This document shows, piece by piece, positions 9,001 to 15,000 of a DNA stretch of 44,938 nt. Numbering within the stretch: the first letter of the stretch is position 1; every line of letters begins with the position of its first letter. The stretch is from a virus (lineage: Duplodnaviria > Heunggongvirae > Uroviricota > Caudoviricetes). Location of the stretch: the IMG/VR virus record IMGVR_UViG_637000107_000005, one strand, 5' to 3'. Made by a program: the position numbers.

Positions 9001-12000
9001 ATCTGGATGTGAGGCGGAATAATAGCCGAAATTCGGTAAGGGGCTTCGAAGGGGCTTTTAAGGGGCTTCGAAGCCAAGAACAGGAACAGGAGCAGGAGAA
9101 AGAACAGGAACAGGACAAAAACACTATGGTTCATGGCAAAAAAAACACCACGAACCAGGCAGGGGATGTTCAGACCGTCAATCCTGGTCAGCCAGCAGGC
9201 ACGACACCGGAAGCCGATTCGGGCGCTGTGCAGCAGGTGATGACCGCAGGGTCGGAGCAATCACACCAACTGCAGCAGCCTGAAGCCGATTCCGCCATTC
9301 AGCGGGAAGCCGATCGGGTAGTCCCGGAAAGCACCGGGCAGTCTGTGGGACGAGTGGATTATCCGGATGTGTTCGAACAGGTCTGGCGGGAATACCCGTT
9401 GCGTGCTGGGGCAAACCCGAAGAAATCCGCTTTCAGTGCCTGGAAGGCCAGATTGCGCGAGGGGGTGCCACCAGAGACCATGCTGGATGGTGTGAGGCGT
9501 TACGCGAGATACCTGGCGGCGACCGGGAAAGCGGGAACGGAATTTGTTCAGCGAGCGACGACGTTTTTTGGGCCGGACCGGAATTTTGAAAACCCCTGGT
9601 TGCTCCCGGTAAGCGGCACGAACAACCAGCGTTGTGTGAATCATATTTCTGAACCGGATACCGAAATTCCGCCGGGATTCAGGGGGTGATGTGGCATGAA
9701 AAACATTGCGGCAGCCGGGGTTCTTGAACGTATTCGCAGACTTGCACCACAGGCGTCGGTTCCACCGTACCGGACGGTGGAGGAGTGGCGGGAATGGCAA
9801 CTTGCTGAAGGACGAAAACGCAGCGAGGAGATTAACCGCCAGAATCACCAGTTGCGGGTGGAAAAAATCCTGAATCGTTCGGGCATCCAGCCTCTGCACA
9901 GCAAATGCTCGTTTGCGAATTATCAGGTGCAGAACGACGGGCAAAAATACGCGCTGAGCCAGGCCAAATCCATAGCTGACGAACTGATGACCGGGTGCAC
10001 GAATTTTGTGTTCAGCGGTAAAACCGGCACCGGGAAAAATCACCTTGCAGCGGCGATGGGTAACCGGCTGATGGCGAAGGGGCGCAGCGTGATTATCGTC
10101 ACCGTGTCTGATGTCATGAGCGTGTTGCATGACAGCTACGACAACGGCAAATCCGGGGAAAAATTTTTACAGGAGCTTTGCAGTGTTGATTTGCTGGTCC
10201 TGGATGAAATAGGCGTTCAGCGGGAGACGAAAAACGAGCAGGTGGTATTACACCAGATAATTGATCGCCGGACAGCATCACTGTGCAGTGTCGGGATGTT
10301 AACAAACCTGAATCATGCCGCAATGAGTACACTTCTTGGTGAGAGGATTATGGACCGCATGACCATGAACGGTGGTCGATGGGTGACGTTTAACTGGGAT
10401 AGCTGGCGTCCAAATGTCAGCAATATGAGGGTTGTGAAGTAATTTTGTCCGGAGGAAATTTTAATGGAAACCGTATCTGACGCACTGAAAGCACTGAAAA
10501 AAGCCTCTTCACATGTGGTGGCAGCTCGCCTTGGAATCAGTCGTGAAGAGGCTGTCAACGAGCTGTGGGAACTCAAAATAAATGGCGTCGTTGATAAAAC
10601 TGGTCACACCTGGTTTCTGGCTGGCGAAGGTGAATCCCGGGTAACCGAAGAGCGGCCAGTAAAATCTGAAGCACAGGATATGCTGACCGGGGAGGTCGAA
10701 CAAAAAGTTACCGCAGACATGATGATTGAGTTTATCGGTCAGGATGGGGCTAAAACGTGTGAGGAACTGGCGGGTAAGTTCGGTGTCAGTACTCGCAAGG
10801 TTGCTTCCACGCTGGCGGTGGTAACCGCAACGGGGCGGCTGGCACGCGTTAATCAGAACGGTAAATTTCGTTACTGCATGCCGGGCGATAATTTACCAGC
10901 AGAGCCGAAAGCCGCGCTGGTAACGGAAAGTGATGGTAAGGCCTTTCCTCAGCCAGCAGGTGCTGCGTTACCAGTCCGGGAAGCCGCAACACAGGAAGAA
11001 ATTAAAACAGAAACTGTGGCGGACATTGTGCAGCCGTTGCCATCGTTTACCGAAACGCAAGCAGATGAGCTGATTTTTCCGTCCCTTCGCAGGGCAAACC
11101 TGGCGCTGCGCAGGGCGAAAAGTGATGTTCAGAAGTGGGAGCGAGTCTGCGCCGCGCTGCGGGAGCTGAACAAGCACCGGGATATTGTTCGACAGATTAC
11201 TGATTCTTCCCGCCGTGTTGTATCGGAAAAGTGATTGCCGGAGGCGCTTATGGCAAAAGTATTTACACAGGAAGAGCGGGAAAAAATTAAAGGGCAGGTT
11301 GTTGAGCTAGTACGCCGGAGTGGGCGCGAGACGTTACGGCAACTGGAAGCCAAGACAGGTGCGACAAGATATCTGATGAGCGTTCTTGCCAGAGAGCTGG
11401 TTGCCAGTGGCGATGTATACAACTCTGGTTACGGGTTATTCCCATCTGAACAGGCTCGTAAGGACTGGCAAAACGCCCGCAAAAAACTATCGAGGGCAAA
11501 ACTGAAGAAACCGGTTGTGGTTGATCCTGACCTTATCTGGTCATTACCAGACGGAGAAATACGCCGCTATGACAGGCAATTGAACATAATTTGTAGTGAG
11601 TGCCGTAACAGTGAAGTGATGCAGCGAGTTTTGATATTTTACACAGGAGTAATGATGGAATAGTGAAAATAACATGAAACCTTTGGATTCTGGTGTTTCA
11701 GTGGATGGGAAAAGAGCAGATACATAGAAAATGAATAGCAATAATTCACAGTCTGGATGTTGTTTGTATGCTTATAAAATGATCCTAGTATGCATTGCCG
11801 GAGTTGAATCAGCTCCAATGAAGAAACTGAGAGGAGTATTTAGAAGATAGCTAAATGGATGTAATTATTAGTATCTAAAAAATAGTATTTTTGAAATGGG
11901 TCTAAGAACACAACAATGTACAAATGAGAAGTTATCTTTTAATATGTTCAAAGACCCATTAGGATTGATATCAGTTATGTTAGCTAGATTGATAAAGTGA

Positions 12001-15000
12001 TTACATATTTTCTGTTATATGCTGAAATGAATAATGCTATTCCAGAGTGCAGCAGAGAAAGTCTCCTGATGATTGAGCTCTGGAAATTGTACAATAGAAA
12101 AATTACTGTATTTTTCTGTCAAAATATTTCTCAAAACAGATTCCGCTTTGATGGCTTCAGGATATAAAGATGCGGAGTAATCAAGGCTAAGATTTCCGTT
12201 AAGCAAGCATATACTTTTAGTGTGCTTTGATTCTGATATATCATCTTTAATTATCTTGATGATTCTTTCATTCTGCCATAGAAGTGATGGTGCAGATATA
12301 TAATAATAGTTAAAGCATGAATTATTTTTTAAGCAATCAAGCACAAAAATAGCACCTAGCGAGTGTCCCCATATACCGATTCTGGAACTGTTCGGAGCAA
12401 TAGTACTAACCCATGGCATGATCTGAGTTAGTAATAATTCTCGGAAAGACTGGCTTCCTCCACCAGTAAAGTAGATCCATGCTGGTTTAGAGTTATCAAC
12501 AATAGCATTTTCACCATCAGGAGTATAATCGTAAGCACGGCGATGAATGCTAAGGTTATTCCAAGATTCATAACCAAGTGTAACTAACACTGGTGGATTG
12601 GGTAGTGCATCAATAACAGGCAGAATATCAGAAATGTAATTGTTGGCACTATTCCCATCAAGTATATAAAGAGTTGCATTATTTTTTTTAATGTTTTTTG
12701 GAGTAAAAATACATATTTTATATTTGGTGTCATGGTTAATTGAGTTAAATATGCGTGTTTGACAATGAATGTCCATATGTTTAGTCATGCGTTCTCCCCA
12801 TGAGCATTAAAGGATGCTTAAGATATGCTATGTCACTGATAAAAAATTTGTTGTGTGTGTTTAGTTATTTTATCTACCTCCATTATGATTTAAGACTGAT
12901 ATATGTTATCAGCAAAGGTACATCGTTATTATTTTACCTGTCAATACATTTGATATTGATTATCGTTTACATCGCTTGCTTAGGAAATTGAAGGCAGGTA
13001 ACTATCATGTCAATGAACTAACCCACAGTCTAACGTACTTCTTTCCCCAATCACCAACAACCAAATTCCTGTTATCACCACTGGGATTTTGGCGCAACTT
13101 CATGGTGCAGAGGTAAATAGCATCAAGCAAAATCTCTTTTTCCGTTGTTGTCCTTATGGGACGTCTGTCTTTCTGACCGATTTCATATTGGCGAGGTAAT
13201 GGGAAGTTAAGTAGAATAGCTGCGGGTGCTTGAGGCTATCTGCCTCGGGCATGAACACCAACGGCAGATAGAGAAAAGCCCCAGTTAACATTACGCGTCC
13301 TGCAAGACGCCTAACATTAATCTGAGGCTCAATCTATGAACGGCAAATCTAGGTTAGCCTCTTACGTGCCGAAAGGCAAGGAGAAGCAGGCTATGAAGCA
13401 GCAAAAGGCGATGTTAATCGCCCTGATCGTCATCTGTTTAACCGTCATAGTGACGGCACTGGTAACGAGGAAAGACCTCTGCGAGGTACGAGTCCGAACC
13501 GGCCAGACGGAGGTCGCTGTCTTCACAGCTTACGAACCTGAGGAGTAAGAGACCTGGCGGGGGAGAAATCCCTCGCCACCTCTGATGAATCAGGCATCCT
13601 CAACGCACCCGCACTTAACCCGCTTCGGCGGGTTTTGTTTTTTCCTGGCATTCTGGTTTACAATTCGCACGCCAGCCTGAACAACTGGCACCTGCTGCGC
13701 CAGCAGAGACAACCGATGGCGCACGATACCAAATTATACAATTCTGATGATTCTGCCGTCTTTGCCAGCAGGCGCGGACGGTGTTTTCACGCATTCAAAT
13801 CTGACTGGTACCAGCATCCCCCATGCACTGAAGAACAGGCCGAATGGCTCATTCAGTGTTACCGCAGGCGCGGATGCGAGGTTAAAAAAGCCCTTAGCCT
13901 CGACTACCGTCACTGGATAATCTCCGTCAGGCTCCCTTACTCCGAACGGCCACCGCGTCCGTCCCGCACATTCCAGCAACGGATCTGGAGGTAATGTGCG
14001 GGTATTACTTCGACCTGTTCTGGTACCGGAACTCGGTCTGGTTATCGTTAAGCCAGGCCGTGAATCAATGTCAGCATTCCATAACGGCAGAATACTGGTG
14101 GAGCCGGAACCAAAAAGCATGCGAGCTCTGCCGTCCGGGGTTGTACCTGCCGTTCACCAGCCGCTGGCGGAAGATAAATCACTACTGCCATTTTTCAGCG
14201 ATGAGCGGGTGATCCGTGCTGCGGGTGGCGCTGGTGCACTGTCTGACTGGTTATTACGTCACGTGAAATCCTGCCAGTGGCTACACGGTGATTATCATCA
14301 TAGCGAAACCGTCATTCACCGTTACGGTACCGGCGCGATGGTGTTGTGCTGGCACTGCGACAACCAGCTGCGGGAGCAGACATCTGATTCACTGGATCAA
14401 CTTGCTCAACAGAATCTGGCCGCCTGGATGATTGACATCATCCGTCACGCAATGAATGGCGCACAGGAGCGTGAATTATCTCTGGCTGAATTATCCTGGT
14501 GGGCGGTCCGCAATCAGGTGGCGGACGCGCTACCGGAAGCGGTATTACGTCGTTCGCTGGGGTTGCGTGCGGAAAAAATCCGCTCCGTATACCGTGAAAG
14601 CGACATCATACCGGGAGAACAGACCGCCACCAGCATACTGAAGCAGCGCACAAAAAATATTGCGCTACCGTCTCACACCCACCAGCAACAGAACCCACCA
14701 CAGGAAAAGACGGTGGTCAGCATTGCCGTTGATCCGGAGTCTCCGGAATCCTTCAGGAAACGACCTAAACGTCGCCGCTGGGTAAATGAGAAATACACAC
14801 GCTGGGTAAAGACACAGCCGTGTGCGTGTTGTGGTAAGCCAGCGGACGATCCTCATCATCTGATTGGTCATGGTCAGGGCGGAATGGGAACAAAATCCCA
14901 CGATATTTTCACGCTACCGCTGTGTCGGGAGCATCACAACGAGCTTCATGCGGATCCGCTGGCGTTCGAAGAAAAGCATGGTTCCCAGGTTGATTTAATT

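What the first reader, a model, noticed from the sequence alone, without database searches (positions are those of the whole stretch)
11664..13330. AT-rich moron carrying an alpha/beta-hydrolase (esterase) on the opposite strand
A roughly 1.7-kb low-GC island interrupts the rightward early/nin genes and encodes a 257-aa GHSLG-type hydrolase transcribed antisense to the phage operon, with long AT-rich flanks typical of horizontally acquired cargo. I do not recognise this esterase as a standard lambdoid gene; it could be a lysogenic-conversion factor.
Basis: partly seen in the sequence, partly recalled or inferred. Interest (0 to 1): 0.6.

Follow-up and report, generated by a model that had tools for sequence, protein, structure and literature searches.

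The report
Prophage-borne leaderless IroE-type esterase cassette
A low-GC, backwards-facing gene cassette in prophage Sp4 of E. coli O157:H7 encodes an intact, transcribed relative of siderophore-cleaving esterases that lacks the usual export signal; it sits in a slot where related phages carry anti-phage defence genes, and its function has never been tested.

Summary
The window is prophage Sp4 of E. coli O157:H7 Sakai (CP-933M in EDL933). A 257-aa ORF (12015-12788, minus strand; ECs_1077/WP_000160654.1, probably Z1341) lies in the window's lowest-GC stretch (0.34 against 0.52). It is antisense to the early operon, between the DUF977 gene and hok/sok.

The protein is an IroE-type serine esterase. 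IroE is the best solved-structure match (E 5e-26), and a confident model's top 29 fold hits are all siderophore esterases. Ser143, His240, Asp44 and Arg84 are conserved. It lacks the N-terminal signal or anchor that most relatives have, so it is probably cytoplasmic. Nothing among 1.84 billion representatives is 34-82% identical.

It is under purifying selection (dN/dS 0.16-0.25). Its own promoter has a published TSS at 12907, strongest in stationary minimal medium.

The slot is a cargo hotspot: empty in BL21, and holding NsnABC, BstA-like or PDC-S15 defence genes in related phages.

Best reading: a lysogen-expressed cytoplasmic siderophore-ester hydrolase. Iron regulation is unproven, because a Fur-like box exists but there was no induction when fes rose 8 log2. 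A defence role remains possible. Moderate interest; the gene is annotated but uncharacterised.

The parts
11630..13145 (.). Cargo-specific DNA occupying the DUF977-to-hok slot (the 'island'), GC about 0.34
   Evidence: Homology to other prophages ends at 11546-11630 on the left and resumes at 13146-13176 on the right. The empty site is in BL21.
12015..12788 (-). CDS of a 257-aa leaderless IroE-type serine esterase (ECs_1077, WP_000160654.1, EDL933_RS06180; probably Z1341)
   Evidence: dN/dS is 0.16-0.25.
12915..12944 (-). Sigma-70-type promoter: -35 TTGACA (12944-12939), 18-nt spacer, -10 TACCTT (12920-12915)
   Evidence: Placed by me relative to the published Cappable-seq TSS. It is invariant in all three allele groups.
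12907..12907 (-). Experimentally mapped transcription start (EDL933 position 1261534, minus strand)
   Evidence: PMC10469882 supplements 6 and 8. Detected in all 8 conditions, with RRS 19-373.
12789..12906 (-). Remainder of the 119-nt 5' UTR (which starts at the TSS, 12907), with SD GGGGAG (12799-12794); no significant structure
   Evidence: Fold z-score +0.14.
12952..12970 (-). Fur-box-like site GTAAACGATAATCAATATC (15/19 to consensus), at -63 to -45 from the TSS
   Evidence: P about 0.004 in shuffles; 14/19 retained in the 90% allele. Function is doubtful.
11877..11960 (-). Candidate terminator between the convergent genes: long hairpin 11960-11895, then a U-run
   Evidence: Fold energy -26.7 kcal/mol, z = -2.78. 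The stem arms are conserved in the divergent allele.
11235..11663 (+). DUF977 gene (ECs_1076), the conserved left anchor of the slot
   Evidence: Pfam PF06163, E 4e-27. Annotation.
13042..13145 (.). Spacer with no similarity to the divergent allele's locus; includes a PGAP pseudogene fragment (13050-13133)
13146..13548 (+). hok/sok (mokW/hokD-type) type I toxin-antitoxin module, the conserved right anchor. It is not part of the cargo.
   Evidence: Rfam sok 13224-13398. hok mRNA TSS at 13224 and Sok TSS at 13344. hokD CDS at 13393-13548.

Best explanation
The element is a single-gene 'moron' cassette: a promoter, a 119-nt leader, a 257-aa ORF and a hairpin. It was acquired horizontally into the variable DUF977-to-hok slot of lambdoid prophages.

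Shown:
- The gene encodes a structurally intact serine esterase of the IroE/PfeE/BesA siderophore-esterase family.
- The nucleophile Ser143 (in GHSLG), His240, and the family-invariant Asp44, Arg84 and Asp87 are all retained.
- It is under purifying selection.
- It is transcribed in the lysogen from its own sigma-70-type promoter, antisense to the phage early operon. Transcription is strongest in stationary-phase minimal medium.

Inferred:
- Because it has no signal peptide or membrane anchor, it acts in the cytoplasm, like Fes or BesA and unlike IroE, PfeE or Cee.
- There it cleaves ester bonds of a siderophore. The most plausible substrates are enterobactin-type catecholate trilactones or a pirated xenosiderophore.
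- That would change how the lysogen releases or recycles siderophore-bound iron.

The substrate and the benefit to the host are not shown.
For: - Sequence: the best PDB match is IroE 2gzr, E 5e-26 over residues 8-253. BES, PfeE and the fungal siderophore esterases follow.
- Structure: the AF2 model has pLDDT 89.6 and pTM 0.90. The top 29 Foldseek PDB hits are all siderophore esterases (E about 1e-18, TM 0.72-0.83). The next tier (Fes, esterase D) is at about 1e-9.
- Catalytic residues: D44, R84, D87, G141, S143 and H240 are invariant across 50 family members. Every E. coli variant whose sequence covers these positions keeps them, apart from His240 in the misaligned C-terminus of fragment P0018. 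The IroE dyad is Ser189/His287 (PMC10515146).
- Location in the cell: there is no hydrophobic N-terminus (maximum KD 0.29), against 38 of 47 relatives that have one. No remnant of it survives upstream.
- Selection: dN/dS is 0.16-0.25 among three allele groups.
- Transcription: the TSS at 12907 was detected in all 8 conditions, with RRS 373 in stationary minimal medium against 28 in exponential LB. The promoter is invariant across alleles.
- Possible iron link: Z1341 was up 2.5-fold with HEp-2 cells, in a list dominated by ent, fep, chu and exbB genes. There is a Fur-like box with 15/19 matches, P about 0.004.
- Precedent: BesA shows that family members can act inside the cell.
Against: - No enzymology exists for this protein, and it is at most 33% identical to any characterised or uncharacterised relative. 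Substrate transfer by homology is therefore weak.
- Pfam Esterase (PF00756) scores below its curated cut-off (17 against 22 bits), and NCBIfam gives nothing.
- In M9 medium, fepA, fes and entF rose 5-8 log2 while Z1341 rose only 0.6 log2. Its largest rise (3.7 log2) was under trimethoprim-sulfamethoxazole.
- The Fur-like box lies at -63 to -45, which is not the usual repressing position.
- O157:H7 already has Fes.
- The slot's other occupants are often defence genes.
- The identification of Z1341 with the hydrolase is inferred from gene order only.
Confidence: 0.5

Rival explanations
1. It is an anti-phage defence, superinfection-exclusion or colicin-protection gene. The lysogen would express the esterase to block competing phages, either directly or by changing siderophore and TonB-receptor physiology. 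This would match the kind of cargo found in the same slot of sister prophages.
For: The DUF977-to-hok slot holds NsnABC (E 1e-123, 1e-122 and 1e-90), a BstA-like KilA-N protein (E 3e-21) and PDC-S15/FRG (E 1e-98) in related phages. The BstA-like and PDC-S15 genes are antisense, like this gene. The cassette has low GC and its own constitutive promoter. Transcript rose 3.7 log2 under an SOS-inducing antibiotic.
Against: The esterase has no PADLOC match even at E 0.1. No esterase or hydrolase was recovered in the E. coli functional defence screen I read. The slot also carries non-defence cargo such as QueH, DUF551 and an IS. The fold matches small-molecule siderophore esterases specifically. There is no partner gene.
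Confidence: 0.15
2. It is a functional cytoplasmic esterase whose substrate is not a siderophore, for example another acyl or depsipeptide ester, a xenobiotic or a host-derived ester. The IroE fold would have been recruited for a new substrate.
For: There is a large divergence gap: nothing between about 33% and 83% identity in 1.84 billion representatives. Loss of the export signal changes the accessible substrates. It is not co-regulated with the Fur regulon in M9. It is not linked to any siderophore transport or synthesis gene. The nearest Pantoea and Duffyella relatives are also outside siderophore clusters.
Against: All 29 top structural neighbours, which include every characterised one, are siderophore esterases. 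The family-invariant non-catalytic residues D44, R84 and D87 are retained.
Confidence: 0.25
3. It is a decaying, N-terminally truncated remnant of an IroE-like gene with no current function, carried along by the prophage.
For: It lacks the signal/anchor and the conserved 'RPDxxPLGxNIADxGS' segment of its nearest relatives. Expression is low in most conditions. One frameshifted copy exists (L016/L108).
Against: dN/dS is 0.16-0.25 across three allele groups with dS up to 0.31. Catalytic residues are kept in every variant that covers them, apart from His240 in the misaligned C-terminus of fragment P0018. All three allele groups have the same start codon and N-terminal residues, and their promoter and SD are invariant. 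The predicted fold is confident and complete. 467 of 471 genomic copies are near full length.
Confidence: 0.05

Closest known systems
IroE (salmochelin/enterobactin trilactone hydrolase of the iroA cluster; PDB 2GZR/2GZS)
   Same: It is the closest solved and characterised relative: 28-29% identity over the full length, E 5e-26, TM 0.77-0.83. Both have a lid-less alpha/beta-hydrolase fold, a GxSxG Ser plus a C-terminal His, and the conserved LDGN Asp and RAYDYTP Arg.
   Different: The prophage protein has no N-terminal membrane anchor or signal, and lacks the segment that follows it, so it is probably cytoplasmic rather than periplasmic. It is not in an iroBCDEN cluster but is a solitary cassette in a prophage. 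Identity is at most 33%. Its activity is unknown.
BesA / BES (Bacillus bacillibactin esterase; PDB 2QM0)
   Same: It has the same IroE-type fold (E 9e-18, TM about 0.77). BesA works inside the cell on imported ferric trilactone siderophores (PMC5411514). That is the functional model proposed here.
   Different: Only about 20% identity. BesA sits in a Fur-regulated siderophore locus in a Gram-positive host, whereas this gene shows no clear Fur response.
PfeE (Pseudomonas) and Cee (Campylobacter) ferric-enterobactin esterases
   Same: Same fold family (PfeE E 5e-18). They hydrolyse ferric enterobactin to release iron (PMC8001512).
   Different: Both are periplasmic and are genetically linked to their outer-membrane receptor. 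This protein is leaderless and unlinked.
Fes / IroD (cytoplasmic enterobactin esterases)
   Same: They share the proposed compartment and reaction. The relationship is a distant PF00756-type fold.
   Different: Fes has an extra N-terminal domain and a Ser-His-Glu triad. The structural match is only second-tier (E about 1e-9).
Prophage cargo/defence hotspots (for example the P2/P4 hotspots, or BstA downstream of the repressor)
   Same: There is a fixed slot between conserved phage genes whose content varies between sister phages. The content is often low-GC, often antisense and often defence systems.
   Different: This particular occupant matches no known defence family.

Membership tests
IroE-type siderophore esterases (IroE/PfeE/BesA/EstB structural family) | Alpha/beta-hydrolase fold of the IroE type, without a lid domain | tested here: met
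   AF2 model with pLDDT 89.6. The top 29 PDB fold hits are all members, with TM 0.72-0.83 and E about 1e-18.
IroE-type siderophore esterases (IroE/PfeE/BesA/EstB structural family) | Nucleophile-elbow Ser (GxSxG) and catalytic His near the C-terminus (IroE Ser189/His287) | tested here: met
   GHS143LG and H240 align with IroE GHSYG and LGHG. Both are invariant in 50 sequences. The dyad is cited from PMC10515146.
IroE-type siderophore esterases (IroE/PfeE/BesA/EstB structural family) | Conserved LDGN Asp and RxxDYTP Arg. From my own recollection of Larsen et al. 2006, these are IroE Asp90 and Arg130 and matter for activity. | tested here: met
   D44, R84 and D87 are invariant in alignment A2. 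Their functional role was not verified from a paper held here.
IroE-type siderophore esterases (IroE/PfeE/BesA/EstB structural family) | Hydrolysis of siderophore ester bonds | not testable with these tools
   Requires enzymology. No publication on this protein was found.
IroE proper (iroA-cluster orthologue) | N-terminal membrane anchor or signal giving periplasmic exposure | tested here: not met
   The ORF cannot be extended. Maximum 15-aa hydropathy in the first 60 residues is 0.29, while 38 of 47 relatives reach at least 1.6 and carry a median of 35 extra residues. No remnant lies upstream.
IroE proper (iroA-cluster orthologue) | Location in an iroBCDEN (salmochelin) gene cluster | tested here: not met
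   The neighbours are DUF977 and hok/sok in a lambdoid prophage.
Pfam PF00756 (Putative esterase) | Score at or above the curated gathering threshold (22 bits) | tested here: not met
   17.0 bits, E 0.005. Relative P0020 does carry PF00756.
Fur regulon | Fur box overlapping the promoter and de-repression under iron limitation | tested here: inconclusive
   A 15/19 box (P about 0.004) lies at -63 to -45. Z1341 was up 2.5-fold together with ent, chu and fep genes on HEp-2 cells. In M9 it rose only 0.6 log2 while fes rose 8.0. The TSS signal is highest in stationary minimal medium.
Phage moron (autonomous cargo cassette in a prophage) | Not conserved among sister phages; deviant composition; own promoter (and terminator); expressed in the lysogen | tested here: met
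   The slot is empty or differently filled in related phages. GC is 0.34 against 0.52. The TSS was mapped in uninduced cultures. There is a candidate terminator hairpin.
Known anti-phage defence systems (PADLOC-DB 2.0) | Match to a defence protein model | tested here: not met
   No family at E up to 0.1. Other occupants of the slot do match.

The most novel reading that the evidence does not exclude
The leaderless IroE-type esterase is a new kind of single-gene prophage protection factor. It would be carried in a lambdoid defence hotspot and act on a small-molecule ester, a siderophore or a siderophore-like compound. The effect would be to shield the lysogen from competing phages, colicins or microcins that depend on TonB-dependent siderophore receptors, or to interfere with an infecting phage directly.
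Probability: 0.1. Interest if true: 0.8.

Novelty: new variant of a known kind. Interest (0 to 1): 0.4.

Why it matters
If the enzyme does cleave siderophore esters in the cytoplasm, Sp4/CP-933M-type prophages would give Shiga-toxigenic E. coli (O157:H7, O103:H2, O145) an extra, phage-transmissible step in iron acquisition or siderophore piracy. That is a type of lysogenic conversion I did not find described. No IroE-type fold appears among viral proteins in BFVD, and none is annotated in deposited phage genomes.

The survey also defines the DUF977-to-hok junction as a cargo and defence hotspot of lambdoid prophages. It holds several uncharacterised low-GC antisense cassettes (L036, L051) that could be mined for new defence genes.

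The practical value is modest until activity is shown. The gene is already annotated as 'alpha/beta hydrolase'.

Tried and rejected
- NCBIfam and PADLOC scans of the hydrolase gave nothing.
- Rfam at gathering and at E up to 1 found no RNA family in the island other than sok.
- A search for a lost signal peptide in all upstream frames found nothing.
- The consensus promoter scan's best candidate (ATAACA-16-CATAAT, 12909-12882) does not fit the mapped TSS and was dropped.
- The 63-aa plus-strand ORF at 12800-12991 is broken by an indel in the divergent allele, so it is not a gene.
- The 5' UTR has no significant structure.
- Contexts of the nearest plasmid-borne relatives in Pantoea and Duffyella were uninformative, with no siderophore cluster.
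- The scan of species-representative genomes found no close relative.
- The exact-sequence cluster look-up failed because the collection holds a 256-aa version.
NC_002655 and PMC2536649 are not held.
- Literature searches for ECs1077, WP_000160654, and prophage siderophore esterases found no characterisation.
- Simple Fur regulation was considered and downgraded after the M9 RNA-seq comparison.
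Full report
**1. Observation**

The ORF list shows a 257-aa ORF at 12015..12788 on the minus strand, containing GHSLG. It starts at the first ATG after a stop codon, so it cannot be extended. The composition profile shows a trough of 0.29-0.36 GC from about 11600 to 13100, between flanks of 0.50-0.55.

Measured directly, GC is 0.344 for the ORF (GC3 0.279), 0.313 for the left flank and 0.361 for the right flank. The island as a whole is 0.341 against 0.52 for the window. It is the lowest-GC 1.5-kb stretch in the 44.9 kb, about 3.4 sd below the mean.

**2. Where this is**

The island is 100% identical to E. coli O157:H7 Sakai prophage Sp4 and to EDL933. The gene is ECs_1077 / EDL933_RS06180 / WP_000160654.1, annotated 'hypothetical protein' in the Sakai record and 'alpha/beta hydrolase' in EDL933.

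Rfam places the hok/sok leader at 13224-13398. Similarity to deposited phage genomes begins at 13146 and covers only hok/sok.

**3. What the protein is**

- Pfam gives only a sub-threshold Esterase hit (17 against 22 bits). NCBIfam gives nothing. PHROG 8493 (unknown function) matches over the full length.
- Against PDB sequences the best hit is IroE (2gzr), E 5e-26, covering residues 8-253. BES, PfeE and the fungal siderophore esterases follow.
- An AlphaFold2 model built on a 50-sequence alignment is confident: pLDDT 89.6, pTM 0.90.
- Its 29 best Foldseek matches in the PDB are all IroE-type siderophore esterases (IroE, EstA/EstB, PfeE, BES, 3gff), at E about 1e-18 and TM 0.72-0.83. The next tier (Fes, esterase D, others) is at about 1e-9 to 1e-10.
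- Across the 50 family members the invariant residues are D44, R84, D87, G110, G141, S143 and H240. Ser143 and His240 align with the IroE catalytic dyad Ser189/His287 (PMC10515146).
- Every E. coli variant of the protein whose sequence covers these residues retains them, apart from His240 in the misaligned C-terminus of fragment P0018.

**4. How it differs from its relatives**

An exhaustive HMMER search of 1.84 billion representatives found 998 relatives at E up to 1e-3. Nothing lies between about 33% and 83% identity. The only close sequences are E. coli fragments, which agrees with the indexed search.

The nearest relatives (31-33% identity) are 290-330 aa long. They begin with a hydrophobic signal or anchor followed by a conserved 'RPDxxPLGxNIADxGS' segment. 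The prophage protein starts just after this segment.

Its most hydrophobic 15-residue window in the first 60 residues scores 0.29. By contrast, 38 of 47 relatives reach at least 1.6 and carry a median of 35 extra N-terminal residues. No remnant of the missing part is detectable in any upstream frame. The protein is therefore most likely cytoplasmic. IroE, PfeE and Cee are periplasmic, whereas Fes and BesA act inside the cell (PMC8001512; PMC5411514).

**5. Is it functional?**

The gene occurs in 471 of 5426 complete E. coli genomes:
- 458 copies are at least 99% identical. They include O157:H7, O103:H2 strain 12009 and O145.
- 13 copies are 90-95% identical.
- 467 copies are near full length.

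Viral contigs add alleles at 92% and 89-90%, plus one frameshifted copy. The three allele groups differ by dS 0.12-0.31 and dN 0.03-0.05, giving dN/dS of 0.16-0.25. This is purifying selection on the protein, which argues against a decaying relic. No close relative exists in any of 185,579 species-representative genomes. No IroE-type fold is present among viral proteins in BFVD, where the best TM is 0.55-0.58 and the hits are generic hydrolases.

**6. Expression**

Published Cappable-seq data for EDL933 list a gene TSS for RS06180 at 1261534 (minus strand), detected in all eight conditions. This converts to window position 12907, 119 nt upstream of the ATG.

| Growth phase | LB | Minimal medium | Acid | Salt |
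|---|---|---|---|---|
| Exponential (mean RRS) | 27.8 | 39.4 | 28.6 | 20.9 |
| Stationary (mean RRS) | 76.9 | 372.7 | 51.0 | 19.0 |

Upstream of this TSS lie a perfect -35 (TTGACA, 12944-12939), an 18-nt spacer and TACCTT (12920-12915). These elements, the TSS region and the SD are identical in all three allele groups. The 253 bp upstream of the ATG are 87% conserved between alleles, more than third-codon positions (83%) or the 3' flank (76%).

A long hairpin followed by a U-run sits between the convergent genes (z = -2.78). The cassette therefore has the anatomy of an autonomous moron that is expressed in the lysogen.

**7. Iron regulation: inconclusive**

Because the family is made up of siderophore esterases, I tested one prior hypothesis, a Fur box.

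For:
- A 15/19 match to the 19-bp consensus lies at 12970-12952 on the minus strand. The probability of such a match in composition-matched shuffles is about 0.004. The 90% allele keeps 14/19 at the same offset.
- By gene order, Z1341 is this gene: Z1338 is the replication protein, Z1339-Z1341 are three hypotheticals, Z1342 is hok and Z1344 is the endonuclease.
- Z1341 rose 2.5-fold when EHEC was grown with HEp-2 cells, in a list dominated by entDEF, fepC, exbB and chuASTUW.

Against:
- The box lies at -63 to -45, upstream of the -35.
- In strand-specific RNA-seq, M9 medium raised fepA by 5.0, fes by 8.0 and entF by 7.6 log2, but Z1341 by only 0.6. The largest change in Z1341 was +3.7 log2 under trimethoprim-sulfamethoxazole, and read counts were low throughout.

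Classic Fur de-repression is thus not supported. Induction by starvation or stationary phase is.

**8. The slot is a cargo and defence hotspot**

A chimeric query that joins the end of the DUF977 gene to hok/sok finds an uninterrupted junction in E. coli B/BL21, which is an empty site. Other strains carry different small inserts. The boundaries are consistent across phages: about 11546-11630 on the left and 13146-13176 on the right.

Among 80 viral-contig loci that carry the DUF977 gene there are at least 15 occupancy types. Identified cargos:
- NsnA/B/C, with E 1e-123, 1e-122 and 1e-90.
- An antisense KilA-N/BstA-like protein, E 3e-21.
- An antisense FRG/PDC-S15 protein in phage Tritos, E 1e-98.
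- An antisense NA37 gene paired with a membrane-protein gene, GC 0.34.
- Two unknown antisense proteins, GC 0.375.
- Forward-oriented QueH (the commonest occupant), DUF551 and an IS.

The hydrolase cassette always sits in this slot, even when the backbone differs. In one case the replication genes are different (L003). In another the DUF977 gene is only 70% identical. This context raises a rival reading based on location, namely defence or exclusion. However, the esterase matches no PADLOC family, and the functional defence screen I read reports no esterase.

**9. Verdict**

The element is a horizontally acquired, autonomously transcribed, selectively maintained cassette. It encodes a leaderless, highly divergent member of the IroE-type siderophore-esterase family.

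- Most likely mechanism (about 0.5): cytoplasmic hydrolysis of a siderophore ester, with effects on iron handling by the lysogen.
- Rivals: a non-siderophore ester substrate (about 0.25), a defence or exclusion role (about 0.15), and a functionless relic (about 0.05).

The gene is already annotated generically, and I found no functional study of it. It is a new variant of a known enzyme kind in an unusual carrier and compartment. Interest is moderate and depends on biochemical follow-up.

Noticed in passing
window 11546-11630 to 13146-13176; loci L005, L008-L010, L018-L090: The junction between the DUF977 gene and hok/sok is a variable cargo slot in lambdoid prophages. It is empty in BL21. Elsewhere it holds NsnABC (L027), a BstA-like KilA-N protein (L040, L075), PDC-S15/FRG (Tritos), QueH, DUF551 or an IS. 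I did not find this slot described as a defence hotspot.
   Followed up: partly
L036 (slot insert 3224 bp, GC 0.337) and L051 (3533 bp, GC 0.375): These are uncharacterised low-GC antisense cassettes in the same slot. L036 has an NA37 nucleoid-associated-protein homologue plus a 406-aa membrane protein. L051 has proteins of 363 and 213 aa with no Pfam or PADLOC match. They are candidate new defence systems.
   Followed up: partly
window 12883-12833 (-): There is a 16-codon upstream ORF inside the esterase 5' UTR. The 90% allele keeps its start, stop and length, but the amino-acid sequence is not conserved and there is no obvious SD. It is probably not meaningful.
   Followed up: partly
window 12015-12788 (Z1341) in PMC4048457 Table S4: The sense transcript rose 3.7 log2 under trimethoprim-sulfamethoxazole, an SOS- and prophage-inducing treatment. 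Its neighbours Z1338-Z1340 did not rise. Read counts were low and the cause is unexplained.
   Followed up: no
window 12491 (-), 12312 (+), 11952 (+), 11629 and 11659 (-): Published Cappable-seq data list an internal sense TSS and antisense TSSs within and just beyond the esterase gene, plus antisense TSSs in the 3' end of the DUF977 gene. This suggests convergent transcription across the cassette.
   Followed up: no
window 13050-13133 (+) and 13154-13291 (-): PGAP marks a truncated pseudogene fragment in the spacer. The Sakai 45-aa ORF ECs_1079 overlaps the hok mRNA leader and is probably spurious.
   Followed up: no
window 4435-4486 (-) and 17022-17188 (+): Rfam finds a DicF sRNA (76.9 bits) and an STnc100 sRNA (94 bits) elsewhere in the prophage.
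   Followed up: no
window about 6160-6638 (-), about 17500-18100 (+), about 18120-18370 (+), from about 18862 (+): The same prophage carries other cargo: a RelE/RelB toxin-antitoxin pair next to the repressor, an AraC-family regulator (ECs_1087), the tRNA genes ileZ-argN-argO, and a SASA-family carbohydrate esterase (ECs_1088). The last is a second, unrelated esterase on this phage.
   Followed up: no
L016 / L108 (IMGVR_UViG_2695420643_000015): One copy of the esterase gene (98% protein identity; 99.7% in DNA) is frameshifted into 134-aa and 67-aa pieces. H134 (strain 12689) has a copy with only 75% coverage, split into two places. These are rare inactivated copies.
   Followed up: partly
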